Of a stretch of DNA of 40,853 bases, positions 23,656 to 35,198 are shown piece by piece; position 1 is the stretch's first letter; the number at the start of each line of letters is the position of its first letter. The notes below the pieces were generated by a model. It was not told where the DNA came from and made no database searches. It saw only the letters and a program-made list of their open reading frames with translations. Source of the stretch: Candidatus Hydrogenedens sp. (lineage in GTDB: Bacteria; Hydrogenedentota; Hydrogenedentia; Hydrogenedentales; Hydrogenedentaceae); the NCBI GenBank assembly GCA_049968235.1, contig JBMFRC010000025.1, positions 1 to 40,853 of the forward strand, in the 5' to 3' direction. The translations under genes and the position numbers were made by a program.

Positions 23656-23693
23656 AGAGTACACTATTTGAAAAGTAGTGTACTCTTTTTTTA
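23656..23693 (+). terminator. Rho-independent terminator after pckA
   Basis: Stem AGAGTACACTA/TAGTGTACTCT with a 9-nt loop, followed by a T7 run. Confidence 0.7.
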
Positions 23694-23734
23694 TGTTTAT
23701 TTAATCTATGGAGATAATTATAAGGAACATAAAA

Positions 23735-26700
23735 ATGAACAAAAACTTCTATTTTACATCATGTATCTGCTTTATGATTCTGTTTAACGCAAATATCTTT
23801 GCTGAAAACGCACCTGTTTTTTCTATACAGGAAGGCGTTTTTATCAAAGAATGGCTTGTTTGTGGACCTTTTCCTAATCCATTGAAGGAAGGGGTCGTGG
23901 AATTTCGTCATGATGAAACAACATTAGGCTTTTATATCGATTACCTTGCCAGGGCGGGAGGAGAAAGTAATGTAACTCCGGAAGAAGGCATGTCTGTTCA
24001 GCCAGAAGAAGGTATCACACGGGTATGGAAGAAATATATATCCCCTGAGGATTATATAAATTTTAATAAGGTATTTGAGGATAATCAAGGTGGCAAAGTG
24101 GCGTATGCCTTTTGTTACTTAAAAAGTGATACGGACAAGGATGTCGTTTTAGGTATAGGAAGTAATGATGGAGTCCGTATCTGGCTAAATGGGGAACGAA
24201 TCTGGGATAACCATTGTGCAAGAGGTGCCGTTGCTGACGATGACTGTTTTATCGTATCACTAAAAAGCGGATTAAATCCCCTTCTGATAAAAGTAGACCA
24301 GGGATTTGGGAACTGGGGTTTTTATGCTCGTATCTTAAATAGAGAAGAAGTTCTGAAGAAACTCAAAGAATTACCTGATTTAAGAGCAGATATAACCTAT
24401 GTTCAGGAAAATAATTCCATACGGGCATGGATGGCTCGCTATTCTAAATACTGCTTATTAGACCCACCCGTTCAATACACTTTGCAATTATTAAATGCAA
24501 ATAATGAAGTTATACAAAAAAATTCTGCAAATTTAGGACAGCCGGTAACCTTTTCTCTTGAAGGACTTCCAGAAGGTCCCTATAGAATAGAAGGAAAGTT
24601 TGCAATTCCTGACGGAATGACTTTTGAGAAAGAAAGTTTCTATTATCATGGAAAATCCACAGTGGTTATAAATTTAGGGGCATTTTATGAAAAATTATCT
24701 AATAAGAGAGTAGAACTTTTATTTGATAGTAATCAAAACAAACTAAAAGATAGCGAAATACTAAAAAGTCCTGATTATATGCCTGTATTAGAACCTGTAT
24801 CCGGTGGAATACAGGAATTTAGTGGAGGAAAATATGCAATCTTAAGAACAGATTTGTCCCCGTTATGGATACGCGTATTATTGCCCGCACCGGGTTTAGG
24901 ATATGAATGGTTTATGTTAAACGATAGTGGCTACAAATTTAAAACTCAAGAAGTTCAAGAAATCGATGCTTTAAGTGAAATTGAGAAGACTTTGCGAAAT
25001 CGACTTTCTACTGCATTGGAGAACGGTTATTTCCCCAACTCAGAATGGTTATTTCAGTCTTATAGCCAAAGACTTATGCTAACACCGGTGCGACAGGCAA
25101 AAGGAGAAATTTCACCCGAAGAACGATTAAGAAAAATACACCGTCTTTCCTCACTTAAAGCCAAAATAGCTGAGAATGATTCTATGTCAGTATGGTTTTC
25201 CCCCGCAATAGAAAAGGTAGGTAAAGATGAACCTGTACCCGATTGTTCACTGGAATATTTCCCATTAGATATTGCCCGGAATGAATACGAAGCATTTCAA
25301 GTTGTTATAAGTCCCAAAGGAAACATTTCATCCCTAAAAATAAATGTTTCAGAAGGTAAAACTAAGGACGGTTACACATTGCCCGCTGACCAATTTAAAG
25401 TTTTTGAGGTAAATTATGTGCCAATCCAAACTGTATCCGATTATTATGGTGACCTAAAAGAATATCCAGACCCTATAGTGCCTGTAAAAGATGCTATTAA
25501 TGTTTCATCGGAAGGGAATATTGTGCTATGGGTTCGTTTGTATGTTGGAAAAGGGCAACCGCCGGGTATTTATGAAGGGAAGATACAAATAAATTCAGTG
25601 GGATTAAATGTGGAAGTTCCATATAAAATTCAAGTTTTTAATTATGTATTACCACCGTATACAAGCACAGAAACTGCCTATGGAGTTTCGCCGGATTACT
25701 CCTGGCATGGACCCTTAACAGATGACCAGAAAAAAGAAGTTTTCGATTTATATATGAAAACCTGTATGGAATATCGAATATCCCCATATACTCCTCATGC
25801 TTTTGCACCTATAAAATGGACATTTGAAGGAACACCACCAGAAGCAGTATTAGATTTTTCTGAATTCGATAAAGCAATGGAGAAATATCTAAATCAGTAT
25901 AATTTTAATGCCTTTAATATAGGCGGTTTACCTTCAGAACTCAATGGAGAACCGATGTATTCGAAAGAATATAATAGACTGTTTACTTCAATATATAGCA
26001 AGGTTCAGGAACATTTACGGGAGAAAGGTTGGTTATATAAGGCGTATTGGTATTGGGTGGATGAACCTCCTCCCGCAGAATATCCTAATGTTAAAAAAGG
26101 GATGGAATTATTACAGTCCGCCTGCCCTGATATACGCAGGCTTTTAACCTGCAATCAAGAATTAGCACCTGTACCCTATTTCTGGGGAGTGGTTAATCTC
26201 TGGGTTCCAATATTTAATATGTATGAAGAAACACGAGCACAATGGAGGCAGAGTTTAGGAGAAACGGTGTGGTGGTATGTATGCACTGCTCCAAGGGCTC
26301 CATATGCAAACAATTTTGTTGACCATCCCGCAATAAATCACCGAATCCGTTACTGGCAGGTAGATAAATATAATCTGGATGGCGATTTATTCTGGTCAAT
26401 TACATATTGGTCACAAAATCCATGGGAAGAAGCCATGTCCATGAGTCCTGACGGACAAAGGTGGGGTAACGGAGATGGCCGGTTATTATATCCACCACGA
26501 AAGGAGAAGCCTACAGAAACTATTATAGAACCACCTGTGCCTTCTATACGATTGGAATGTTTACGTGATGGTCTGGAAGACCGAGAATATTTGTTAGTTT
26601 TAGAACGCGTATCCGCAAGAAAAGCACCTATCGGAGTTTTAGCCCGTAGAGAAAGAGCAGAAGCATTAAATAAACTCTCCTCTTCCTTAAAGGTTTATGA

Positions 26701-26779
26701 ACAAAATCCGCTACTTTTCTATTATTACAGAACAAGAATTATGAATCTTGTAGCACGAATTGTTCAAGGAGGTTCATAA
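23735..26779 (+). CDS. Large secreted glycoside-hydrolase-like protein: N-terminal lectin-like beta-sandwich plus C-terminal region reminiscent of DUF4091/GH123-like proteins
   Basis: Signal peptide. The WLVCGPFPNP...VRIWLNGERIW...LLIKVDQGFGNWGFYARI N-terminal module is common in PVC glycosidases. The C-terminal YWYWVDEPP...GDGRLLYPPR pattern is recalled from DUF4091. Family call is tentative. Confidence 0.45.
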   Translation: MNKNFYFTSCICFMILFNANIFAENAPVFSIQEGVFIKEWLVCGPFPNPLKEGVVEFRHDETTLGFYIDYLARAGGESNVTPEEGMSVQPEEGITRVWKKYISPEDYINFNKVFEDNQGGKVAYAFCYLKSDTDKDVVLGIGSNDGVRIWLNGERIWDNHCARGAVADDDCFIVSLKSGLNPLLIKVDQGFGNWGFYARILNREEVLKKLKELPDLRADITYVQENNSIRAWMARYSKYCLLDPPVQYTLQLLNANNEVIQKNSANLGQPVTFSLEGLPEGPYRIEGKFAIPDGMTFEKESFYYHGKSTVVINLGAFYEKLSNKRVELLFDSNQNKLKDSEILKSPDYMPVLEPVSGGIQEFSGGKYAILRTDLSPLWIRVLLPAPGLGYEWFMLNDSGYKFKTQEVQEIDALSEIEKTLRNRLSTALENGYFPNSEWLFQSYSQRLMLTPVRQAKGEISPEERLRKIHRLSSLKAKIAENDSMSVWFSPAIEKVGKDEPVPDCSLEYFPLDIARNEYEAFQVVISPKGNISSLKINVSEGKTKDGYTLPADQFKVFEVNYVPIQTVSDYYGDLKEYPDPIVPVKDAINVSSEGNIVLWVRLYVGKGQPPGIYEGKIQINSVGLNVEVPYKIQVFNYVLPPYTSTETAYGVSPDYSWHGPLTDDQKKEVFDLYMKTCMEYRISPYTPHAFAPIKWTFEGTPPEAVLDFSEFDKAMEKYLNQYNFNAFNIGGLPSELNGEPMYSKEYNRLFTSIYSKVQEHLREKGWLYKAYWYWVDEPPPAEYPNVKKGMELLQSACPDIRRLLTCNQELAPVPYFWGVVNLWVPIFNMYEETRAQWRQSLGETVWWYVCTAPRAPYANNFVDHPAINHRIRYWQVDKYNLDGDLFWSITYWSQNPWEEAMSMSPDGQRWGNGDGRLLYPPRKEKPTETIIEPPVPSIRLECLRDGLEDREYLLVLERVSARKAPIGVLARRERAEALNKLSSSLKVYEQNPLLFYYYRTRIMNLVARIVQGGS

Positions 26780-26831: not shown

Positions 26832-27749
26832 ATGAGTGATACAGCAATTGTATTCCGTGAGGAAGGTCTTTTTCACGATACAGGACCCTATCATCCCGAA
26901 AAGCCAGCAAGATTAGAGGCAATACTAAATGCTTTTGAACAGCATAAAATAGACCCCCCTTTTCTGGATATAGAACCGGCTACTCGTGAAGACTTATTGA
27001 GAATTCATACCGTTCAACATGTGGATACGATTGAACGAACATGTAAAAATAATCTAGATTATTCCGACCCGGATACCGTTATGGGAGAGGCATCATGGGC
27101 TGCGGCTCTATTATCTGCCGGAGGGGCTATATCTGCATGCAAAGCGGTTTTAGAAGGTAAATATAAAAGCGTTTTTGAAATAATGAGACCTCCCGGACAT
27201 CATGCAGAGCCGAATCGGGCTATGGGTTTTTGTTTATTCAATAATGTTGCAATAGCGGGACGATGGTTAACAGATGTAGCAGGATTGAAACGGGTAGCTA
27301 TTTTTGATTTTGATGTTCATCATGGAAATGGAACACAGAAAGTCTTTTATAATGATGATAGAGTTTACTATATAAGTATTCATCAGTTCCCTCATTATCC
27401 CGGGACAGGATTCCCAGAAGAGAGGGGAAAAAATAATACCAATTTAAATATACAAATGATGCCCGGTGTCCCGGAAGAGTTATGGCATTCCGCCATCGAA
27501 AATTTAGTATTACCTGAATTAAAAAGATTTCAACCCGAGTTTTTACTTATATCCGCAGGATTTGATGCACATCGAAAAGACCCGTTAGGAAGTCAAAATT
27601 TGGGCGAGGAGGATTTCGCAAAGATAACCCATGCAATCAAAAGAATTGCAGGAGGGCGAATCGTATCTGTATTAGAAGGTGGATATAATTTAGATGCATT
27701 GGGAGAATCATGCGTAGCCCATTATCTCGCATTGAGGGATGAGATTTAA
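26832..27749 (+). CDS. Histone-deacetylase-family (arginase/deacetylase fold) Zn-dependent deacetylase, AcuC/acetylpolyamine-amidohydrolase-like
   Basis: FDFDVHHGNGTQ, PPGHHAE, and the ISAGFDAH...VLEGGYN motifs in the canonical HDAC order. AAGAGG Shine-Dalgarno lies 8 nt upstream of ATG 26832. Confidence 0.85.
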   Translation: MSDTAIVFREEGLFHDTGPYHPEKPARLEAILNAFEQHKIDPPFLDIEPATREDLLRIHTVQHVDTIERTCKNNLDYSDPDTVMGEASWAAALLSAGGAISACKAVLEGKYKSVFEIMRPPGHHAEPNRAMGFCLFNNVAIAGRWLTDVAGLKRVAIFDFDVHHGNGTQKVFYNDDRVYYISIHQFPHYPGTGFPEERGKNNTNLNIQMMPGVPEELWHSAIENLVLPELKRFQPEFLLISAGFDAHRKDPLGSQNLGEEDFAKITHAIKRIAGGRIVSVLEGGYNLDALGESCVAHYLALRDEI

Positions 27750-27808
27750 TATAACAGCAAACAGAAAGGATGTTTCAAAAACAACTTCATGTTTACAGGA
27801 TGAAAATT

Positions 27809-29119
27809 ATGGTAACCCGCAGAGAGATGTTGAAAAATATATCTATGGCGGGAGGAGTTCTTTTTCTTCCATTATGTGAAATAGCCCGTGCAGAAGATAT
27901 CCCATATATATCGGGAGATGAACTGTCTGGAAATTACGAAAAAAAGCAATGTCATGTTACCGTGGGACCTTGTGATAGTGAAGCAGATTTTAGAGGAAGT
28001 ATGCAAAAGGTTATTCAATCTGCTATAGATTATATTGCGAGATATGGTGGAGGAACTATTCAAATACTGCCGGGCGTTTATCGTTTTTCCAATGCAATCT
28101 ATTTATCAAGTCATACTAAAATTATAGGAAACGGTCCATCATCAATATTTGTTAAAGAGCCCTCTGTGGAAACCGAATTTATTAAAGATGCGGATTGGTA
28201 TGAGCAGAGTATTTCTGTCGCACATCCGGAACGGTTTAAGATAGGGGACGGTTTATGCATACGGACAAAAAACCCTCATCATGGAGGAGTAGTTGTCATC
28301 AAAAGAACGATTATTTCTATTGATGGGAATCGTCTCATATTGGATAAAGCATTACGGGAAAATGTTTGGCTTGGACAGGAAACTACAATTGCCACTTTAT
28401 TCCCATTGATAAGTGGAGAGTTTGTGGAAAATATTACGATTAAAAACCTTGTCCTGGATGGAAATAAAGAGAATAACTTAAATTTAGATGGAAATTATGC
28501 AGGTTGTATCTGGTTGCAAGATTGTAAAAAAGTTTCTATCCGCAATGTAGAAGCAAGAAATTATAATGGAGATGGTATAAGTTGGCAGATTGTCCATGAT
28601 GTTGTTGTGGATAATTGCTATTCCCACGATAATACAGGTTTGGGCTTACATCCCGGGTCAGGTTCTCAAAGACCTAAGATGATAAATAATCAAATTGAAA
28701 ATAATGATATTGGGATTTTTTTCTGTGGGGGAGTGCAAAATGGGGTTGCAGAGGGAAATCAGATACAAAACAATCGTGTGGGTATTTCGATAGGACACCG
28801 CGATAATAATAATTGGATTCATAAGAATATCATTACAGATTCCCGAGAATGTGGAATACTTTTCCGTGAAGAACAAGAGAGATTTACTGCAATAGGAAAT
28901 AAGATTGAAGAAAATGTAATTAGAAATATAAAGTTAAACAACGGAACAGGAATATCTATTCTGGGTCTCACAAAGGGCAATGAGATATGTAACAGTAAAA
29001 TTTTAGAAAATGGTGAGAAGAATGAAAAGGTAGGGATTCGAATTGCAAAAACGGCTCAAGATAATGTCGTCAAAGATAACAAAATAAAGGGATTTGCAAA
29101 GGATATTGTGGTAGACTAA
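27809..29119 (+). CDS. Tat-signal right-handed parallel beta-helix repeat protein (pectin-lyase-fold; NosD/polysaccharide-lyase-like)
   Basis: TRREMLKNISMAGGVLFLPL twin-arginine signal. Repeated ~22-aa N-x-I-x-N-N/G...GI turns (NNQIENNDIGIFF, GNQIQNNRVGISI, KNIITDSRECGILF). Start is ambiguous among 27770, 27800 and 27809. Confidence 0.7.
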   Translation: MVTRREMLKNISMAGGVLFLPLCEIARAEDIPYISGDELSGNYEKKQCHVTVGPCDSEADFRGSMQKVIQSAIDYIARYGGGTIQILPGVYRFSNAIYLSSHTKIIGNGPSSIFVKEPSVETEFIKDADWYEQSISVAHPERFKIGDGLCIRTKNPHHGGVVVIKRTIISIDGNRLILDKALRENVWLGQETTIATLFPLISGEFVENITIKNLVLDGNKENNLNLDGNYAGCIWLQDCKKVSIRNVEARNYNGDGISWQIVHDVVVDNCYSHDNTGLGLHPGSGSQRPKMINNQIENNDIGIFFCGGVQNGVAEGNQIQNNRVGISIGHRDNNNWIHKNIITDSRECGILFREEQERFTAIGNKIEENVIRNIKLNNGTGISILGLTKGNEICNSKILENGEKNEKVGIRIAKTAQDNVVKDNKIKGFAKDIVVD

Positions 29120-29163
29120 TAGGAATTTTATTTAACATAGAAACTTTTTAGATGGAGGTAACT

Positions 29164-31326
29164 ATGGAGAATTCTCCTTCGATATTTCAGATTATCTTAT
29201 GGGAATTACAAAAATTTGCTAATCAACACGACCTTAGATATCTAATCCCATCGCTCACAATACTTATCCTTATTGGATTGGTGATTTTAAGTCGGAAATG
29301 GGTTATTTCATATTTAGGACCTGCTGTATCGGGAATTACGAGAGGAGTATTGCTCGCATCTTTGTGTATTTGTGCTTTTCTGGCAGTAGGAAATTACATA
29401 GATAGTTTCGGACAATGGAGGTATGGCACTTTTTTTAATGCGTATGAATTTTACCACTATTACTTAGGTTCAAAATATGCGAAAGAGATTGGTTATACGA
29501 GACTTTATGCAGCAAGTCTGATTGCGGATGATGAGACAGACCGAAAGTATTCTAATCCTCAAAATAATATTCGTAATCTTGTGAATGGAACATATATCAC
29601 CGTAGATGATGTATTAAAAAATAAAGAACAATACAAAAGTCGGTTTTCTCCAGAACGCTGGGAGGAATGGTTGAAGGATATTCGATTTTTCAAACGCGAA
29701 TTAACGACAAGCCGTTGGAATAATGTTTTGAGAGATAAAGGGTATAATGCCTCTCCTATCTGGTCGATGCTGGTAGGAGGTTTTCTGAGCAATCCCATTT
29801 CCACGGATAACCGAAATCATATGCTAATTCTGGCTTCATTGGATTTAATTCTTATTGGAATTACAACGTTGGTTGTGCTATATGCCTTTGGTCTTCGTCC
29901 TGCTATGTTCATGCTTATATTAATTGGGACCCATTATATGATGCGATTTTCGCACATGAAAGGGGCTTTTTTAAGAACTGATTTTGCAATGTGTCTTGTG
30001 CTTTCTGCATGTATGATTAAATTAAACCGTTACAAATGGGCGGGAATCTTTACAGCATATTCTGTAATTTCCCGTGTGTTTCCTGCTGTTTTTCTTTTTG
30101 GTCCGGGAACGCGACTGTTTTGGGATTTATGTAAAATGGTAAGGATAGGATATGATGAATTAAAAATTCGTTTCTACGACCGTAAGCAGAGACTATTTAT
30201 TATTGGCGGATTTGCACTTCTGAATTTTATAATTTCGTTTGTGGGTAGTCTCATTCTCAGGAGATTTCCGTCCCGTTTGTTTGAAGGGTTCACAATTCCA
30301 TGGCCTCTTCCGCTATTTATCCATCTTATTTTATTTATTCCTATTATCTTCTTTGGAATGGTATTGCTTTGGGCAGGGCTTTGGGGTTATTTTGCCGGAA
30401 GAATGGAACGAAATTGGATAAATTATTTCATCTCTTTTACAGTAACAATTACAATTCTTTTTGTCGCTTCTTTTGGTTACTATGGAGGGATGTACCAATG
30501 GCGGGATTATGCCGATAAAATAGGACGACATAATCGGGATATTTCACCATGGCGTGTTGGATATAAATATATTTTTATTGCACAATATCCCAAAAATTTA
30601 GACCTGAAACAATCATTAAAAGATATATCCGGAATTATAGGTAACGCCTTATTAGGCAGACCTATAACAGCCCCTACACCATCCGTTACAACCAATAATC
30701 AGCAGACACCACTAACCAGGAATCCTTCCGCTCCTAAGCCTGTTGTTAAAACCACTACAAATGAACCACTAACCTTTGCTTCAGCAATGAGGAAGGTAAT
30801 ATCCCCATGGAAACCTTTTACGCGAAGTATTATTTATACGGAACAAGCACGAAGGTGGTGGACTACAATGGCAATTGTATTGGTTCTGTGTTTAATCGCA
30901 TCGCGACGACTTTCTCCTTATGAAAGTTTTGTGTTCGGTTTTGTCCCATGTTTCTTTTTAGTTTCACCTACTTATTATTATTACATTATGCTGGCAGTGC
31001 CTTTATTGTTTTTCTCTCCTAAGTCGGATTATATACCCCGTGCTATTGCAATTATCTGGTTGTATATCACCGCTATGGCGGGTTATTTCTTCTATACTAT
31101 GTGGGAACAGGAATTCGCCACATACTACTGGTTAGGCTGTATGCTCTTTGTTCTGTGTATTTATATGCTGATTATTGCATTACTGAACAGTTTGCCTCTT
31201 GAATATACGAAACCATGGATAAATAAAATTAAAGGTTATATTTTAGATAGATTTAAGAAAAAGGAAAGTAGCGATAATAAATCACAGATATTAGAGGAAC
31301 ACCAAGTAGGGGATTCAATTCAATAA
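29164..31326 (+). CDS. Large polytopic membrane protein (>=12 predicted TM segments) with internal Pro/Thr-rich linker; family unknown, possibly a GT-C-like glycosyltransferase or polymerase-type transporter
   Basis: Hydrophobic helices throughout. TAPTPSVTTNNQQTPLTRNPSAPKPVVKTTT linker at ~aa 505-535. GGAGGT Shine-Dalgarno precedes ATG 29164. Only 32 nt separate it from the upstream beta-helix gene. Confidence 0.5.
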   Translation: MENSPSIFQIILWELQKFANQHDLRYLIPSLTILILIGLVILSRKWVISYLGPAVSGITRGVLLASLCICAFLAVGNYIDSFGQWRYGTFFNAYEFYHYYLGSKYAKEIGYTRLYAASLIADDETDRKYSNPQNNIRNLVNGTYITVDDVLKNKEQYKSRFSPERWEEWLKDIRFFKRELTTSRWNNVLRDKGYNASPIWSMLVGGFLSNPISTDNRNHMLILASLDLILIGITTLVVLYAFGLRPAMFMLILIGTHYMMRFSHMKGAFLRTDFAMCLVLSACMIKLNRYKWAGIFTAYSVISRVFPAVFLFGPGTRLFWDLCKMVRIGYDELKIRFYDRKQRLFIIGGFALLNFIISFVGSLILRRFPSRLFEGFTIPWPLPLFIHLILFIPIIFFGMVLLWAGLWGYFAGRMERNWINYFISFTVTITILFVASFGYYGGMYQWRDYADKIGRHNRDISPWRVGYKYIFIAQYPKNLDLKQSLKDISGIIGNALLGRPITAPTPSVTTNNQQTPLTRNPSAPKPVVKTTTNEPLTFASAMRKVISPWKPFTRSIIYTEQARRWWTTMAIVLVLCLIASRRLSPYESFVFGFVPCFFLVSPTYYYYIMLAVPLLFFSPKSDYIPRAIAIIWLYITAMAGYFFYTMWEQEFATYYWLGCMLFVLCIYMLIIALLNSLPLEYTKPWINKIKGYILDRFKKKESSDNKSQILEEHQVGDSIQ

Positions 31327-31331
31327 GTACA

Positions 31332-32245
31332 TTATGAACTTTTAGAATATTTGAGTAAAAAATGTCTAAGTGTTTCTTTGAATTTCGGCGAGAGAGGTGC
31401 TGTGATATGGTTTTTTCTTTGTATGATAGTTAGTTGTGATTGTGGTAGGATGTTTTTTAAGTTTTCTGCTCCTTTACATAGTGGATCATTCTCCCCTACA
31501 ATCATACATATAGGGATATGAATCTCTTTTATTTCATCTTTACCGACCTTGAGTTCAGAGACACCCTTTAATACTCCAATTAATGCTTTGGAGTCATTAA
31601 AAAAATGTGTTAATATTTTTACCCAAAGGAAATGAACAAATCCCAGTTTCCTTCTATTCATATCAAAATGTGTACTTACAGGTTCGATACCTGAACTTTT
31701 TCTAATTTTTTGATGAGCTGATGTATTGATGAAAGGAAGTGGTTTTGGTTGGGCTGTTCCCAACCAGAACCAAGAGAAGATAAGGTAATTACTCGGTCAG
31801 GATAAAGTGTAACTAATTTTATAGCAATAAAACCTCCCAATGAATAACCAGCAATATGTGCTTTGTCTATTTTTAAATAGTCCATTAAGTTGATTATGTC
31901 TTTAACCATTTTTATTCCATATTCGTTTGAACCGTATGGTTTGGAACTAAGTTCATGACCACGGAGGTCAACCGCAATAATACGAAAGTTAATCTTGAGA
32001 TAATCAATTATTCCCGGTTTTCGCCAGTTAAGGTCAGAATTAACAGCAAATCCATGTGTTAAAATTATAGGTTCTCCTTGACCTTCATCTGTGTAGTGAA
32101 TTTTTATACCATCTGAGTTAAAGAAATTTCTTTTGGTTCGGTGTGTAATTTGGTAATAGATTAATAAAGAACAAAAAAAGAAAACAATGAGAACAAAGGT
32201 AAATAAAACAAACAGATAGGAAATTATCTTTTTCCATTTAGGCAT
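31332..32245 (-). pseudogene. Membrane-anchored alpha/beta-fold hydrolase split by a single frameshift (fragments 31676-32245 and 31332-31763)
   Basis: The N-terminal fragment has a TM anchor, HGF oxyanion region and the GYSLGG nucleophile elbow. The C-terminal fragment has the acid (VGENDP) and His (KNHIT) of the catalytic triad. The 88-nt overlap contains T5/T6 runs. Confidence 0.6.
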
Positions 32246-32366: not shown

Positions 32367-35198
32367 TTACGGTTTGGGACAGTAATTATCCTCACCGAGT
32401 CCGGGACAGTAGTAATAACCGCCCGAATTGAAAATTTGAATGAGACGAAGAAGTTCTGACAAATCAAATTTCCAATCTTGGGGTTTGTAATCCGAAGTAT
32501 GGGGGAGACAATCATAATCAATCCCATCCCCGGGAGCATAACCATCTTCAGAATTTGTTTGACAGTGATAACTTCCCAAATTAAACAATTGAATAACACG
32601 GAGCAGTTCACTTAAATCTATGATGCCATCGTTATTTTTATCGGCACTATGATAGGTCCGGATAATTTCTCCCTCTGTGCTTCCTTCTGAAATACCTTCC
32701 CCTTCGAGTCCATCAGGACTGCCATCAGGAGAACCTTCGATTATACCTTCCCCTTCCGGTACCCCCTCACCTTCAGAGTTGCCTTCCGTAATTCCATCAA
32801 CACTTCCTTCTCCTTCGAGTCCTTCAGGACTGCCTTCAGGAGAACCTTCGATTATGCCTTCCCCTTCCGGTACCCCTTCACCTTCAGAGTTACCTTCCGT
32901 AATCCCATCAACACTTCCTTCTCCTTCGAGTCCTTCTGGACTGCCATCAGGAGAACCTTCGATTATGCCTTCCCCTTCCGGTACCCATTCACCTTCAAGA
33001 CCTTCTGTGGTCCCCTCAATACTTCCTTCTGGAGGACAGGGTCCGGTAGATATAATCAGATTAATAGATGTCCCATAAGGAACCTCAATACCTGCGGATG
33101 GTTCCTGACTAATTACACTATTCTCCGGAATTGTATTATCACATGTATATTCAGTCTTCCCGATAGTAAGCCCAATTGATGTAATTTGATTTTCTGCTTC
33201 TGTATAGTTCAATCCTGATACATTTGGGACGATGACTGGACAGTGACCTGATGATACAACTAAATTCACCTGTGTTCCATATGGAACCGATGTGCCGGCT
33301 TGTGGCGATTGGGAGATAACAGAACCGTCCGGCACAGAATTACTGCATAACTCGCTTGTTTGTCCTTGAGTTAAACCCGATGAAGTTATAGTTGATACAG
33401 CCTCTTGCAATATTTTACCTACAACATTGGGAACAGTTACATTGACTGAATTTCCTGATATGGATATATCATCAATGTTCCAGCCTGCATAGGTATCGAT
33501 ATAATCCGTGGGACCCATAACCCAGCGAATGAGTAATAGCGGTTGTCGGTCTGCAATAGCGGAAATATCATAGGTTTTTAGTGACCAAGAATTTTCCTGA
33601 ATTGTCCCCGTGTTATGGTTCCAGATAGTAGTCCATGTAGTTCCATTTGTACTTACATCAATCCGTGCATGGTCATAGGAGGAAGATTCAATACCTAACC
33701 AGCGATAGAAAGATAATACTACGTTCTGAATATTCGAGCAATCAATTGGAACAGAAGTTAGTATTTCTTCGTTCATATCGTTTTCATAAGAGCCATTCAA
33801 GTTATAACCATATACATATTGACCTGTATGTCCAGATGATGGGTCTCCATCGATACCTGCTGGTATGCCAAAAGCCCAATTTCCCGTTTTATCCCAGCCG
33901 GGGTCACTATTCAATAAGAATGAAATGGGGGATAAATAGGCTCTTTTAAGTTTGAGAGTAAAATTCTGAGTATTCTGTGTAACTGTATTTGTTATTGAAA
34001 AAGTTTTGGTGTAGGTTCCAGATTGGGTAGGTCGTTGAGTAACAGTTAATTGAATGATTATATTTTCACCTGGCCTCAAAGTCCCTGATGAAGGATTTAG
34101 AGCAATACCCTCATCAGTGGTAGATGTCCAGTTAATATTATATTCACTGATATTTTCAAGACGAATAGCGATAGATGAAGGGGAAATAAAATTATTAGAA
34201 CTTAGATAGAACAACAAATCCTGTTGAGGTTGTATTAACAATGTATCCGAAGGTGTTCCATATTCAATGTAATCTGCTCCATAACCAATTTGGGACGAAC
34301 CGTAAGCAATGTATCCATAACCATTTTCTCCCCAGTAAGTGCCCCATGAGTTGCGTATAATAAATGAACCTCCGCCATAATTATCATCCCAACCAACAAT
34401 TACAACCATGTGATTAGGTGTTGCTTTCGAGTTCAGATTGTCGTTATATACCCCACCTTTATATGCCAGGAACGATTCCTTTGCTTCCATAGAAGCGACA
34501 ATGGGTCCGTAACGGTATATAGCGGTTTTAAGAGCATCCAGAGAAGGTATGCCTAACATGGGTCCTACATAATGCCAGTCATTGATAGTATAGTAGTGAG
34601 GTTTCGGACAACCACAACTACCTTGATAATCGACATAAGGATAATCCGTTTCAAGAACTGCACCATATCCACCACACGAATCCGTCCTGCTTCCTTTATG
34701 CCAGTCATGAGCAGATATGCCCCCATCACACCCATACCAGAATAAACCTTGTGCACAATCTACTAACCATTGTTCGGATAAATCGACATTAATTCCATCT
34801 TTAATTTTGATTGCACATTCTAATGCCCCAACCGTAGCAAAAGCCCAACAAGAACCACAAGAACCCTGGTCCCGAATAGGAGGTAATCCTCCGGGTATTT
34901 TTTCTCGCCAGTCCCAACGAGAAGGAAGTTTTTCAGTGGAAATAATAGGCTTATCTGCATGAGGTTGTAATTCATCTAAATATTGAGGGTCGGGAGGAAT
35001 ATATCCGGTTAACCGATTCAGACTTCTTTGGGTTGCAGAAGTTTCTCCCACCTCGAATGTCCAGTTATTATTCAAGGCTTCCTGTTTTAACCTCTGAATA
35101 TCTTCCTGAGATAACTGAGCATAAGAGACTGGAACAAGTAGGGACAAAAGAAATAATAAAATCATGCTGTAGATAGGAATATATAATTTTTTCATCAT
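32367..35198 (-). CDS. Secreted multidomain papain-family (C1A) cysteine peptidase: signal/pro-region, C1 catalytic domain, MAM-like beta-sandwich, two PASTA-like domains, acidic GE/SP-rich tandem repeats, and an EF-hand/dockerin-like C-terminus
   Basis: QGSCGSCWAFATVGALE (catalytic Cys), NHMVVIVGWDD (His), NSWGTYWGENGY (Asn). WAFGIPAG...LSFYRW...VSTNGTTWTT...NIDDISI matches a MAM/anchor-J-like domain. Two VPNVVG/VPNVSG...GS(V)ISQ(S/E)P(Q/S)AG...NL(V/I)(V/I)S(S/T)G modules match PASTA. Three 38-aa repeats. DKNNDGIIDLSE is a canonical EF-hand loop, and the LSELLR(V/L)IQ(L/I)FN duplication is dockerin-like. Confidence 0.85.
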   Translation of the reverse strand: MMKKLYIPIYSMILLFLLSLLVPVSYAQLSQEDIQRLKQEALNNNWTFEVGETSATQRSLNRLTGYIPPDPQYLDELQPHADKPIISTEKLPSRWDWREKIPGGLPPIRDQGSCGSCWAFATVGALECAIKIKDGINVDLSEQWLVDCAQGLFWYGCDGGISAHDWHKGSRTDSCGGYGAVLETDYPYVDYQGSCGCPKPHYYTINDWHYVGPMLGIPSLDALKTAIYRYGPIVASMEAKESFLAYKGGVYNDNLNSKATPNHMVVIVGWDDNYGGGSFIIRNSWGTYWGENGYGYIAYGSSQIGYGADYIEYGTPSDTLLIQPQQDLLFYLSSNNFISPSSIAIRLENISEYNINWTSTTDEGIALNPSSGTLRPGENIIIQLTVTQRPTQSGTYTKTFSITNTVTQNTQNFTLKLKRAYLSPISFLLNSDPGWDKTGNWAFGIPAGIDGDPSSGHTGQYVYGYNLNGSYENDMNEEILTSVPIDCSNIQNVVLSFYRWLGIESSSYDHARIDVSTNGTTWTTIWNHNTGTIQENSWSLKTYDISAIADRQPLLLIRWVMGPTDYIDTYAGWNIDDISISGNSVNVTVPNVVGKILQEAVSTITSSGLTQGQTSELCSNSVPDGSVISQSPQAGTSVPYGTQVNLVVSSGHCPVIVPNVSGLNYTEAENQITSIGLTIGKTEYTCDNTIPENSVISQEPSAGIEVPYGTSINLIISTGPCPPEGSIEGTTEGLEGEWVPEGEGIIEGSPDGSPEGLEGEGSVDGITEGNSEGEGVPEGEGIIEGSPEGSPEGLEGEGSVDGITEGNSEGEGVPEGEGIIEGSPDGSPDGLEGEGISEGSTEGEIIRTYHSADKNNDGIIDLSELLRVIQLFNLGSYHCQTNSEDGYAPGDGIDYDCLPHTSDYKPQDWKFDLSELLRLIQIFNSGGYYYCPGLGEDNYCPKP
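32690..33035. repeat. Three near-identical ~114-bp tandem repeats inside the protease gene, encoding the acidic repeat EGEGVPEGEGIIEGSPDGSPEGLEGEGSVDGITEGNS
   Basis: Direct inspection: three units with only a few substitutions. They create the spurious antisense PS-rich ORF 32677-33078. Confidence 0.85.

What the first reader, a model, noticed from the sequence alone, without database searches (positions are those of the whole stretch)
26832..31326. Operon of HDAC-family deacetylase, Tat-exported parallel beta-helix protein and a 724-aa polytopic membrane protein
The three co-directional genes are 59 nt apart (27750-27808; 20 nt if the 27770 start is used) and 44 nt apart (29120-29163). Pairing a cytoplasmic HDAC-type deacetylase (no signal peptide) with a periplasmic beta-helix protein (pectin-lyase fold, typical of polysaccharide lyases, hydrolases and epimerases) and a very large multipass membrane protein with a Pro/Thr-rich periplasmic linker is not a gene set I recognise. 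A plausible hypothesis is a polysaccharide or glycoconjugate synthesis and modification module: deacetylation, polymer trimming or epimerisation, and membrane polymerase or export. That is inference only.
Basis: inference. Interest (0 to 1): 0.55.

Follow-up and report, generated by a model that had tools for sequence, protein, structure and literature searches.

The report
Genus-specific gene neighbours, not a module
Three real, co-directional genes (a zinc deacylase, a Tat-exported β-helix enzyme and a large membrane protein) are neighbours only in one genus of Hydrogenedentota and show no sign of working together; the modestly interesting part is that the membrane protein belongs to a large unannotated family with the GT-C (PimE/ALG6-like) glycosyltransferase fold.

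Summary
Three co-directional genes lie at the stated coordinates with short gaps, the β-helix protein has a conserved twin-arginine signal, and the membrane protein has no Pfam or NCBIfam match. The co-directional run actually has four genes: a secreted GH123-like glycosidase lies upstream, just after a strong terminator.

- The genes are adjacent only where the membrane protein is at least 69% identical (genus Ca. Hydrogenedens). There the unrelated flanking genes (YjeF_N, LigT, YggT, PEPCK) keep the same order too.
- About 70 loci with membrane-protein homologues at 52% identity or less have none of the partner genes within 10 kb.
- The same holds for 78 of 80 β-helix loci and for three HDAC loci outside the genus.
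- Inside the genus the β-helix gene is a remnant in three relatives and absent in two.

Identities:
- The HDAC is a class II-type zinc deacylase with all catalytic motifs, and it is not AcuC.
- The β-helix protein has a generic pectin-lyase fold. It lacks the AlgE catalytic motif and is not NosD.

Overall this is ordinary, with one unannotated GT-C family worth noting.

The parts
23656..23686 (+). Intrinsic-terminator-like hairpin (14-bp stem plus T-run) after the PEPCK gene. It marks the likely upstream boundary of the co-directional run.
   Evidence: The only other terminator-like sites on the + strand before 31326 are weak 5-bp stems inside coding sequence.
23708..26779 (+). GH123-like secreted glycosidase (1,023 aa; the probable start is 23735, with an N-terminal Sec-type signal).
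   Evidence: Pfam GH123_cat at E = 7.2e-27, 95 bits against a cutoff of 23.1. The signal-like N-terminus MNKNFYFTSCICFMILFNANIFA is shown. It is present upstream of the HDAC in all genus-level relatives.
26832..27749 (+). Class II-type (HdaH/HDAC6-like) zinc-dependent deacylase, 305 aa, with no signal peptide.
   Evidence: Pfam Hist_deacetyl at 1.5e-89. Closest solved structures are HDAC6 catalytic domains and the short bacterial enzymes 5ji5 and 5zmp ('lysine deacylase'). The motifs GHH122, DVHHGNG161, GFD243 and EGGY282 are all present.
27809..29119 (+). Tat-exported right-handed parallel β-helix protein, 436 aa (449 aa if 27770 is the start). It has a pectin-lyase-like fold and its specificity is unknown.
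27809..27892 (+). Twin-arginine signal peptide: MVTRREMLKNISMAGGVLFLPLCEIARA, then ED.
   Evidence: The T-R-R-E-hydrophobic motif is conserved in intact orthologues. R4 is invariant and R5 is at least 90% conserved in alignment A4.
29164..31326 (+). Polytopic membrane protein (720 aa; 724 aa from 29152) with a GT-C glycosyltransferase fold. It belongs to a family that has no Pfam or NCBIfam model.
29398..29811 (+). Large first extracytoplasmic loop (residues 83-220, numbered from 29152). It carries the family's signature motifs (N-x-x-[DE]-x-x-H-Y-Y-x-G-x-K-Y and D-K-G-Y-N-A-[ST]-P-x-W) and is the inferred catalytic loop.
   Evidence: Conservation in alignments of 35 and 90 sequences: position 99 is D/E in 86 of 90, H102 and Y103 are each in 88 of 90, D176 is in 90 of 90, D195 in 89 of 90. 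The D/E-x3-Y spacing parallels D58/Y62 of PimE (PMC12041525). The structural equivalence is inferred and was not superposed.
30652..30774 (+). Pro/Thr-rich, low-confidence linker (residues about 501-541). It lies inside a variable insertion that makes this protein longer than the 510-540 aa typical of the family.
   Evidence: pLDDT is 55-57 over residues 510-530 and DSSP shows coil. The periplasmic location is inferred from helix counting and the positive-inside rule.

Best explanation
The three genes, together with an upstream GH123-like gene, form a co-directional and probably co-transcribed run that is specific to the genus Candidatus Hydrogenedens. They are not a conserved functional module. 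Each gene belongs to a family that stands alone elsewhere.

(1) The HDAC is a cytoplasmic class II-type zinc deacylase. It is most likely a protein-lysine deacylase and is conserved at 60-70% identity throughout Hydrogenedentota.

(2) The β-helix protein is folded in the cytoplasm and exported by Tat. It is most likely a periplasmic or secreted glycan-active enzyme of unknown specificity. It is dispensable here, because close relatives have lost it.

(3) The membrane protein is a glycosyltransferase of the GT-C superfamily with about 14-15 transmembrane helices, from a family that has no model in Pfam or NCBIfam. By analogy with PimE and ALG6, it would take a sugar from a polyprenyl-phosphate-sugar donor in the outer leaflet and transfer it to a lipid, glycan or protein acceptor on the periplasmic face. 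A conserved acidic residue at the start of the first juxtamembrane helix (E99, held by Y103) would act as the base. Conserved basic residues on the inferred periplasmic side (K270, R275, R308, K456, H460) would bind the donor phosphate.

Shown here: the gene structure, the folds, the motif conservation and the lack of co-conservation. Inferred: co-transcription, membrane topology, catalytic roles, and the donor and acceptor.
For: Genes and domains.

Genus-only adjacency: a tblastn survey of 93 loci carrying membrane-protein homologues found HDAC and GH123 next to it only at 69% identity or more (L001, L004-7, L009, L014-16, L018-20). None of the roughly 70 loci at 52% identity or less has them within 10 kb. 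In the genus the unrelated genes YjeF_N, LigT, YggT and PEPCK are equally syntenic.

From the β-helix side: only 2 of 80 loci, both from the genus, carry HDAC, GT-C and GH123.

From the HDAC side: three orthologues at 64-71% identity sit in three unrelated contexts.

No recurrent partner for either family: the best true neighbour of the GT-C family (the anaerobic reductase NrdD) occurs in 9 of about 76 loci, and the best neighbour of the β-helix family in 7 of 78.

β-helix gene loss: there are remnants of 135, 120 and 56 aa in relatives whose membrane protein is 85-90% identical, and the gene is absent in L001 and L018.

Conserved acidic and basic residues. PimE mechanism: PMC12041525.

HDAC class.

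β-helix fold.
Against: - Short gaps (52, 20-59 and 32-44 nt) and the lack of any strong terminator make co-transcription likely. Co-transcribed genes are often functionally linked.
- The GH123-HDAC-GT-C order persists across the whole genus, down to 69% identity. I cannot separate selection from inertia at that depth.
- GH123, the β-helix protein and GT-C all plausibly act on glycans outside the cytoplasm, so a lineage-specific functional link is not excluded.
- The GT-C assignment rests on a predicted structure with 7-13% sequence identity to solved enzymes.
- PIG-U shows that this fold can be non-catalytic.
Confidence: 0.72

Rival explanations
1. One reading: the genes form a dedicated polysaccharide or glycoconjugate synthesis and modification operon. 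The HDAC would deacetylate a precursor, the GT-C protein would polymerise or transfer sugars at the membrane, and the β-helix enzyme would trim or epimerise the product in the periplasm.
For: The genes are co-directional with short gaps and no strong internal terminator. The membrane protein does have a glycosyltransferase fold. The closest folds to the β-helix protein are polysaccharide epimerases and lyases.
Against: There is no co-conservation outside one syntenic genus, tested from all three sides. The β-helix gene is lost or decayed in five close relatives while HDAC and GT-C stay intact. The HDAC's closest characterised relatives in the PDB search are lysine deacylases (HDAC6, HdaH, 5zmp), and no sugar deacetylase appears among the hits. 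The AlgE epimerase catalytic residues are absent. No sugar-nucleotide, polyprenyl-phosphate-sugar synthase, flippase or export genes lie in the run.
Confidence: 0.08
2. A lineage-specific glycan-foraging (catabolic) cluster. The secreted GH123-like glycosidase and the Tat-exported β-helix enzyme would degrade an external acetylated glycan, while the HDAC and the membrane protein are bystanders or help with uptake and processing.
For: GH123 is a family of exo-acting N-acetylhexosaminidases. The β-helix fold is shared with many depolymerases. The window is rich in other glycan-active genes: a GH42-like protein, a 3-keto-disaccharide hydrolase and Gfo/Idh/MocA.
Against: GH123 and the β-helix protein are not adjacent outside the genus; there is only one weak 22% hit in 78 β-helix loci. 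The β-helix gene is repeatedly lost while GH123 is kept. The GT-C fold is biosynthetic, not a transporter fold.
Confidence: 0.1
3. The membrane protein has the GT-C fold but is not a glycosyltransferase. It could be a lipid-binding or scaffold subunit like PIG-U/GAB1 of GPI transamidase, or a polymerase or ligase acting on another lipid-linked substrate.
Against: The best structural matches are active transferases: PimE 19.0, ALG6 15.9, ALG3 15.2. The family keeps an acidic residue plus Tyr at the head of the first loop helix with the same spacing as the PimE catalytic pair, and it keeps invariant Arg and Asp residues in the loops. That pattern is expected for catalysis rather than scaffolding.
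Confidence: 0.12

Closest known systems
PimE (GT87), the polyprenyl-phosphate-mannose-dependent mannosyltransferase of mycobacteria (PDB 9dm5/9dm7; PMC12041525)
   Different: Sequence identity is only 9%. The window protein gives no Pfam GT87 hit even at E <= 1, and only 1 of 35 and 4 of 52 relatives give weak sub-threshold hits. It is nearly twice as long (720 against 383 aa), with an extra N-terminal helix, a much larger first loop of about 140 aa, a second large loop with a Pro/Thr linker, and extra C-terminal helices. The organisms (Hydrogenedentota and others) are not known to make phosphatidylinositol mannosides.
ALG6, ALG3 and PIG-M (eukaryotic dolichyl-phosphate-sugar-dependent GT-C transferases) and ArnT
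   Different: Identity is 7-12% and there is no sequence-model membership. The bacterial context has no N-glycan, GPI or lipid A pathway genes nearby.
Bacterial class II-type classical deacylases (HdaH/HDAH; 'cluster 1' of Graf et al. 2024, PMC11532494) and the HDAC6 catalytic domains
   Same: The HDAC matches these best (5ji5 at E = 1e-78, 5zmp 'lysine deacylase' at 2e-59, HDAH at 5e-53, HDAC6 at about 1e-102 over two domains). It keeps the tandem His, the Asp-His-Asp zinc ligands and the catalytic Tyr.
   Different: It is a compact 305-aa form without the extended L1 loop of the roughly 370-aa HdaH enzymes. The substrate is untested. It is not AcuC (cluster 2c) and not a cluster-4 polyamine deacetylase, judging by its PDB neighbours.
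AlgE/AlgG mannuronan C5-epimerases and other pectin-lyase-fold carbohydrate enzymes (GH28, GH87, GH110, PL6, PL9, phage tailspike depolymerases); NosD
   Different: Identity is 21% or less. The AlgE4 catalytic Y149, D152 and H154 align to D255, S258 and W259. The NosD family model scores 20.7 bits against a cutoff of 300, and no nos genes are nearby. The family has its own invariant set (C150, C239, C306, H263, H281, H330, D255, D264) and a Tat signal.

Membership tests
Conserved functional operon or module (HDAC + β-helix + membrane protein) | The genes are co-located in lineages beyond those that share general synteny | tested here: not met
   Adjacency occurs only at 69% membrane-protein identity or more, where the flanks are also syntenic. 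None of about 70 distant GT-C loci has the partners, 78 of 80 β-helix loci lack them, and none of 3 distant HDAC loci has them.
Conserved functional operon or module (HDAC + β-helix + membrane protein) | All members are retained together (none dispensable) | tested here: not met
   The β-helix gene is reduced to remnants of 135, 120 and 56 aa in L004/5, L015 and L014, and is absent in L001 and L018. HDAC and the membrane protein remain intact in all of these.
Conserved functional operon or module (HDAC + β-helix + membrane protein) | Co-transcription | not testable with these tools
   Gaps of 52, 20-59 and 32-44 nt and the lack of a strong terminator are compatible with it. No expression data are available.
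GT-C glycosyltransferase superfamily | Polytopic membrane protein with the GT-C core fold | tested here: met
GT-C glycosyltransferase superfamily | Catalytic acidic residue at the first juxtamembrane helix of the first extracytoplasmic loop | tested here: inconclusive
   Position 99 is D/E in 86 of 90 members, and Y103 is present in 88 of 90. It lies at the start of predicted helix 97-108 in the loop after TM2. The spacing matches PimE D58/Y62. No residue-level superposition was possible.
GT-C glycosyltransferase superfamily | Uses a lipid-phosphate-linked sugar donor and is catalytically active | not testable with these tools
   This needs biochemistry.
GT87 (Pfam PF09594; PimE-like) | Scores above the family's sequence-model threshold | tested here: not met
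   The window protein has no hit even at E <= 1. Only 1 of 35 and 4 of 52 relatives give weak hits, the best at E = 2.7e-4. A profile search of PDB sequences does not retrieve PimE.
Classical zinc-dependent deacylases (Pfam Hist_deacetyl), class II type | Domain model above threshold, with the catalytic His-His, the Asp/His/Asp zinc ligands and the catalytic Tyr | tested here: met
   300.7 bits against a cutoff of 27.9. GHH122, D161-x-H163, D245 in GFD, and Y285 in EGGY are all present. The nearest solved structures are HDAC6, HdaH, 5ji5 and 5zmp.
AcuC of acetoin-utilisation operons | Class I-like AcuC sequence and an acuABC neighbourhood | tested here: not met
   The nearest structures are class II-type. 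No acuA or acuB genes appear in the window or in the six other contexts examined. 'AcuC-like' labels in JGI records are automatic names.
Tat-exported proteins | Twin-arginine motif, then a hydrophobic region and an A-x-A cleavage site | tested here: met
   The sequence is MVTRREMLKNISMAGGVLFLPLCEIARA, then ED. The RR pair is conserved across the family. Export itself was not tested.
NosD (nitrous-oxide reductase maturation) | NosD family model above threshold, in a nosZDFYL context | tested here: not met
   TIGR04247 scores 20.7 bits against a cutoff of 300. No nos genes occur in the window or in 78 family loci. The Pfam NosD hit reflects generic β-helix repeats.
AlgE/AlgG mannuronan C5-epimerases | Catalytic Y-G-[FI]-D-P-H-[DE] motif (from knowledge of the family; AlgE4 Y149, D152, H154) | tested here: not met
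   In the profile alignment to 2pyg, the motif aligns to the invariant N-G-D-G-I-S-W-Q (D255, S258, W259), so the Tyr, Asp and His are all replaced.
GH123 glycoside hydrolases (upstream gene) | Catalytic-domain model above threshold | tested here: met
   GH123_cat scores 95 bits against a cutoff of 23.1. Catalytic residues were not examined.

The most novel reading that the evidence does not exclude
The membrane protein represents a new sequence family of active GT-C glycosyltransferases. The family has about 2,450 cluster representatives at 50% identity, is found mainly in Hydrogenedentota, Planctomycetota, Acidobacteriota and Myxococcota, is absent from Pfam and NCBIfam, and is sometimes fused to a CapA/PGA_cap-like domain. 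It would build a still-unknown envelope glycoconjugate in these poorly studied phyla. Separately, the Tat-exported β-helix family, with its invariant Cys/His/Asp set, could be a new carbohydrate-active enzyme class.
Probability: 0.55. Interest if true: 0.45.

Novelty: new member of a known kind. Interest (0 to 1): 0.25.

Why it matters
As a proposed operon it does not matter much. The juxtaposition is genus-level synteny, so using it to infer a new polysaccharide pathway would mislead.

Two by-products have modest value. The first is a large, unannotated protein family that can now be placed with confidence in the GT-C superfamily. Its signature motifs (N-x-x-[DE]-x-x-H-Y-Y-x-G-x-K-Y, D-K-G-Y-N-A-[ST]-P, R275/D277, P-T-Y-Y-Y-Y) would allow a family model to be built and catalytic mutants to be designed. 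The second is a very conserved Tat-exported β-helix family that lacks the catalytic residues of its nearest structural relatives. Both occur in phyla whose envelope glycobiology is essentially unknown.

Tried and rejected
- The AFDB fold library was unavailable.
- I looked for a conserved partner of the GT-C family in about 76 loci. The largest 'neighbour' cluster was the protein's own PGA_cap-fused extension. Two clusters were antisense ORF artefacts. The rest (NrdD, aldehyde dehydrogenase, Gfo/Idh/MocA, a second large membrane protein in 7 loci, an SDR, a kinase) each occur in 9 loci or fewer.
- I looked for a conserved partner of the β-helix family in 78 loci. The best was a DUF1501-like (by resemblance; not scanned) protein in 7 loci.
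- NosD and AlgE/AlgG identities for the β-helix protein were considered and rejected.
- AcuC and polyamine-deacetylase identities for the HDAC were considered and rejected on PDB neighbours and context.
- Defence-system models gave no hits for any of the four proteins.
- Rfam found no riboswitch or leader, only four tRNAs at the ends of the window.
- Promoter-like sites were no more frequent than in shuffled sequence: 39 found against 41.6 expected.
- A literature search for a description of this GT-C family found nothing specific.
Full report
**1. Observation**

The window (about 36% G+C) carries a long run of + strand genes. The three ORFs in the finding are present.
- The HDAC runs from 26832 to 27749. 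It is 305 aa from the ATG, the same length as all orthologues. A GTG six bases upstream is the mechanical ORF start.
- The β-helix gene runs from 27770 or 27809 to 29119.
- The membrane protein runs from 29152 or 29164 to 31326.

The 27809 start (AGGA 9 nt upstream) fits the orthologues, which begin M-[MV]-T-R-R-E. The 29164 start has GGAGG 5 nt upstream, giving 720 aa rather than 724.

Pfam confirms Hist_deacetyl (1.5e-89) and Beta_helix/NosD repeats. Pfam and NCBIfam find nothing for the membrane protein. The twin-arginine signal is real and is conserved across the family.

A 1,023-aa GH123-like protein with a Sec-type signal lies at 23708-26779, 52 nt upstream of the HDAC. A strong terminator hairpin at 23656-23686, after the PEPCK gene, precedes it, and nothing comparable follows until the convergent genes after 31326. 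Named database hits place the window in Candidatus Hydrogenedentota, genus Ca. Hydrogenedens.

**2. Is it a conserved module? No.**

I tested co-location from all three sides.

(a) The membrane protein. Neighbourhood look-ups for nine homologues, plus 80 genome loci with 10-kb flanks, were searched by tblastn with the window's HDAC, β-helix, GH123 and PEPCK proteins.
- HDAC and GH123 are adjacent only where the membrane protein is at least 69% identical (L001, L004-7, L009, L014-16, L018-20).
- None of the roughly 70 loci at 52% identity or less has any of them within 10 kb.
- In the genus-level relatives the functionally unrelated upstream genes (DUF4139, YjeF_N, LigT, YggT, PEPCK) and several downstream genes keep the same order. 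The adjacency therefore cannot be distinguished from plain synteny.

(b) The β-helix protein. Of 80 metagenome loci encoding orthologues at 45-69% identity, only the two from the genus carry HDAC, GT-C and GH123.

(c) The HDAC. Orthologues at 71%, 65% and 64% identity lie in three unrelated contexts: next to a Y1 transposase and peptidases; upstream of a DinB-like gene and a SIR2 gene; and beside a V-type ATPase operon. None has GH123, β-helix, GT-C or acetoin genes.

Neither the GT-C family nor the β-helix family has any recurrent neighbour of its own.

**3. The β-helix gene is dispensable in this genus.**

It is intact in the window and in L006/7, L016, L019, L020 and L009, at 69% down to 52% identity. 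That makes it the fastest-evolving of the four genes.

In the closest relatives (membrane protein 85-90% identical) only remnants of 135, 120 and 56 aa remain. The L004 remnant is an in-frame internal deletion that joins the Tat n-region to the last 135 residues. The gene is absent altogether in L001 and L018. HDAC and the membrane protein remain intact in all of these. This is not how an obligate partner behaves.

**4. What each gene is**

*HDAC.* Its closest solved relatives are the HDAC6 catalytic domains, the compact bacterial enzymes 5ji5 (315 aa) and 5zmp ('lysine deacylase', 307 aa), and HdaH/HDAH. In the survey of bacterial classical deacylases, class II HDACs and the HdaH enzymes form 'cluster 1'. 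AcuC is in cluster 2c, and the true polyamine deacetylases are in cluster 4 (PMC11532494). All catalytic motifs are present: GHH, D-x-H, GFD and EGGY. The most likely function is a cytoplasmic protein-lysine deacylase. That is an inference.

- The AlgE4 catalytic Tyr, Asp and His align to D255, S258 and W259, so it is not an epimerase of that type.
- The NosD family model scores 20.7 bits against a cutoff of 300.
- The family is very large (more than 4,500 hits) and unusually conserved, with a mean column identity of 64% across Planctomycetota, Hydrogenedentota and Acidobacteriota. It has its own invariant Cys, His and Asp residues.
- The best reading is a Tat-exported glycan-active enzyme of unknown specificity.

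*Membrane protein.* It has 229 word-indexed homologues, all 'hypothetical' and almost all without Pfam domains. An exhaustive profile search finds 2,450 cluster representatives at E <= 1e-3 and 1,495 at E <= 1e-30. Typical members are 510-540 aa.
- The AF2 model is confident (pLDDT 90.9, pTM 0.89).
- A few relatives give weak sub-threshold Pfam hits to GT87, PIG-U and PIG-M.
- Conservation is concentrated in the first large loop (E/D99, H102, Y103, K108, Y109, E112, D176, D195, G197, N199, P202), in short loops (K270, R275, D277, R308), and after the tenth helix (K456, H460).
- By helix counting and the positive-inside rule, all of these fall on the periplasmic side. The inferred topology is N-terminus out and C-terminus in, with about 15 helices. 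The PGA_cap-fused members are consistent with this, because they insert one extra transmembrane helix before that domain, which is extracytoplasmic in CapA/PgsA proteins (background knowledge, not tested here). The topology is an inference.
- In PimE the catalytic base D58 sits at the tip of the first juxtamembrane helix and is held by Y62, while K195 and H322 bind the donor phosphate (PMC12041525). The E/D99-x3-Y103 pair at the start of helix 97-108 is the obvious counterpart, but I could not superpose the structures.

**5. Mechanism and rivals**

The best-supported picture has confidence of about 0.72. The four genes are probably co-transcribed but functionally independent, brought together in the Ca. 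Hydrogenedens lineage. The membrane protein most likely works like PimE or ALG6, transferring a sugar from a polyprenyl-phosphate-sugar donor to an unknown periplasmic acceptor.

The rivals are:
- a lineage-specific catabolic pairing of GH123 with the β-helix enzyme (about 0.10);
- a non-catalytic, PIG-U-like role for the membrane protein (about 0.12).

The main caveat is that a functional link restricted to this genus cannot be excluded by comparative data alone.

**6. Comparison with known families, and novelty**

All parts belong to known superfamilies: classical zinc deacylases, pectin-lyase-fold proteins, GT-C and GH123.
- The membrane protein meets the fold criterion for GT-C, fails sequence-model membership of GT87, and has no model in Pfam or NCBIfam.
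- The β-helix protein fails the defining tests for both NosD and AlgE-type epimerases.
- No paper describing either family was found, although the literature search was narrow.

I rate the finding 'new member of a known kind' with low-to-moderate interest. The proposed operon is ordinary synteny. The unannotated GT-C family and the conserved Tat-exported β-helix family are useful but not surprising annotations.

Noticed in passing
window 31332-32245 (- strand): The α/β-hydrolase gene immediately downstream is split into two overlapping ORFs (189 aa and 143 aa). The orthologue in L006 is a single 303-aa gene. This is a frameshift: either a pseudogene or an assembly error.
   Followed up: partly
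GT-C family members, e.g. L063 9869-12526, P0254 and P0117: Twelve of 52 distant members of the GT-C-like family carry a C-terminal CapA/PGA_cap domain (Pfam PF09587, E down to 6e-79) after one extra transmembrane helix. Three carry F5/8 type C domains and one carries a sulfatase domain. The PGA_cap fusion could be a clue to the acceptor or pathway.
   Followed up: partly
window 27809-29119 and alignment A4: The Tat-exported β-helix family is unusually conserved, with 64% mean column identity across several phyla. It has invariant C150, C239, C306, H263, H281, H330, D255 and D264, which may indicate a metal or cofactor site that would explain Tat export. It has no conserved gene neighbour.
   Followed up: partly
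L004/L005 7534-7968: In the closest relative the β-helix gene survives as an in-frame internal deletion that fuses the Tat n-region (MTRREMLKNI...) to the last 135 residues or so. It is still an open reading frame of about 144 aa.
   Followed up: yes
L176 7001-9378: In one Hydrogenedentota MAG the HDAC orthologue lies co-directionally upstream of a DinB-like gene and a SIR2 (sirtuin) gene, so two deacylase types sit side by side. This is consistent with a protein-deacylation role.
   Followed up: no
window 32367-35198 (- strand): A 943-aa secreted protein combines a papain-family C1 peptidase, two PASTA domains, long Gly/Glu/Ser/Pro repeats and a C-terminal EF-hand/dockerin-like segment. This unusual architecture is conserved next to the cluster in the genus.
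   Followed up: no
window 23708-26779: In the GH123-like protein, the first 500 residues or so have no Pfam assignment; only the catalytic domain and weak GH123 N-terminal domains are recognised.
   Followed up: no
L057, L058, L060, L062, L065, L078, L079 (e.g. L058 7225-9858): In seven distant loci the GT-C-like gene lies next to a second large polytopic membrane protein of about 880 aa. Its family was not scanned and it may be another glycosyltransferase-like protein. It is the only hint of a recurrent partner, and it is confined to one subclade.
   Followed up: no
L021/L069, L026/L065, L055/L056, L025/L061: Several Hydrogenedentota MAGs encode two paralogues of the GT-C-like family on different contigs.
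   Followed up: no
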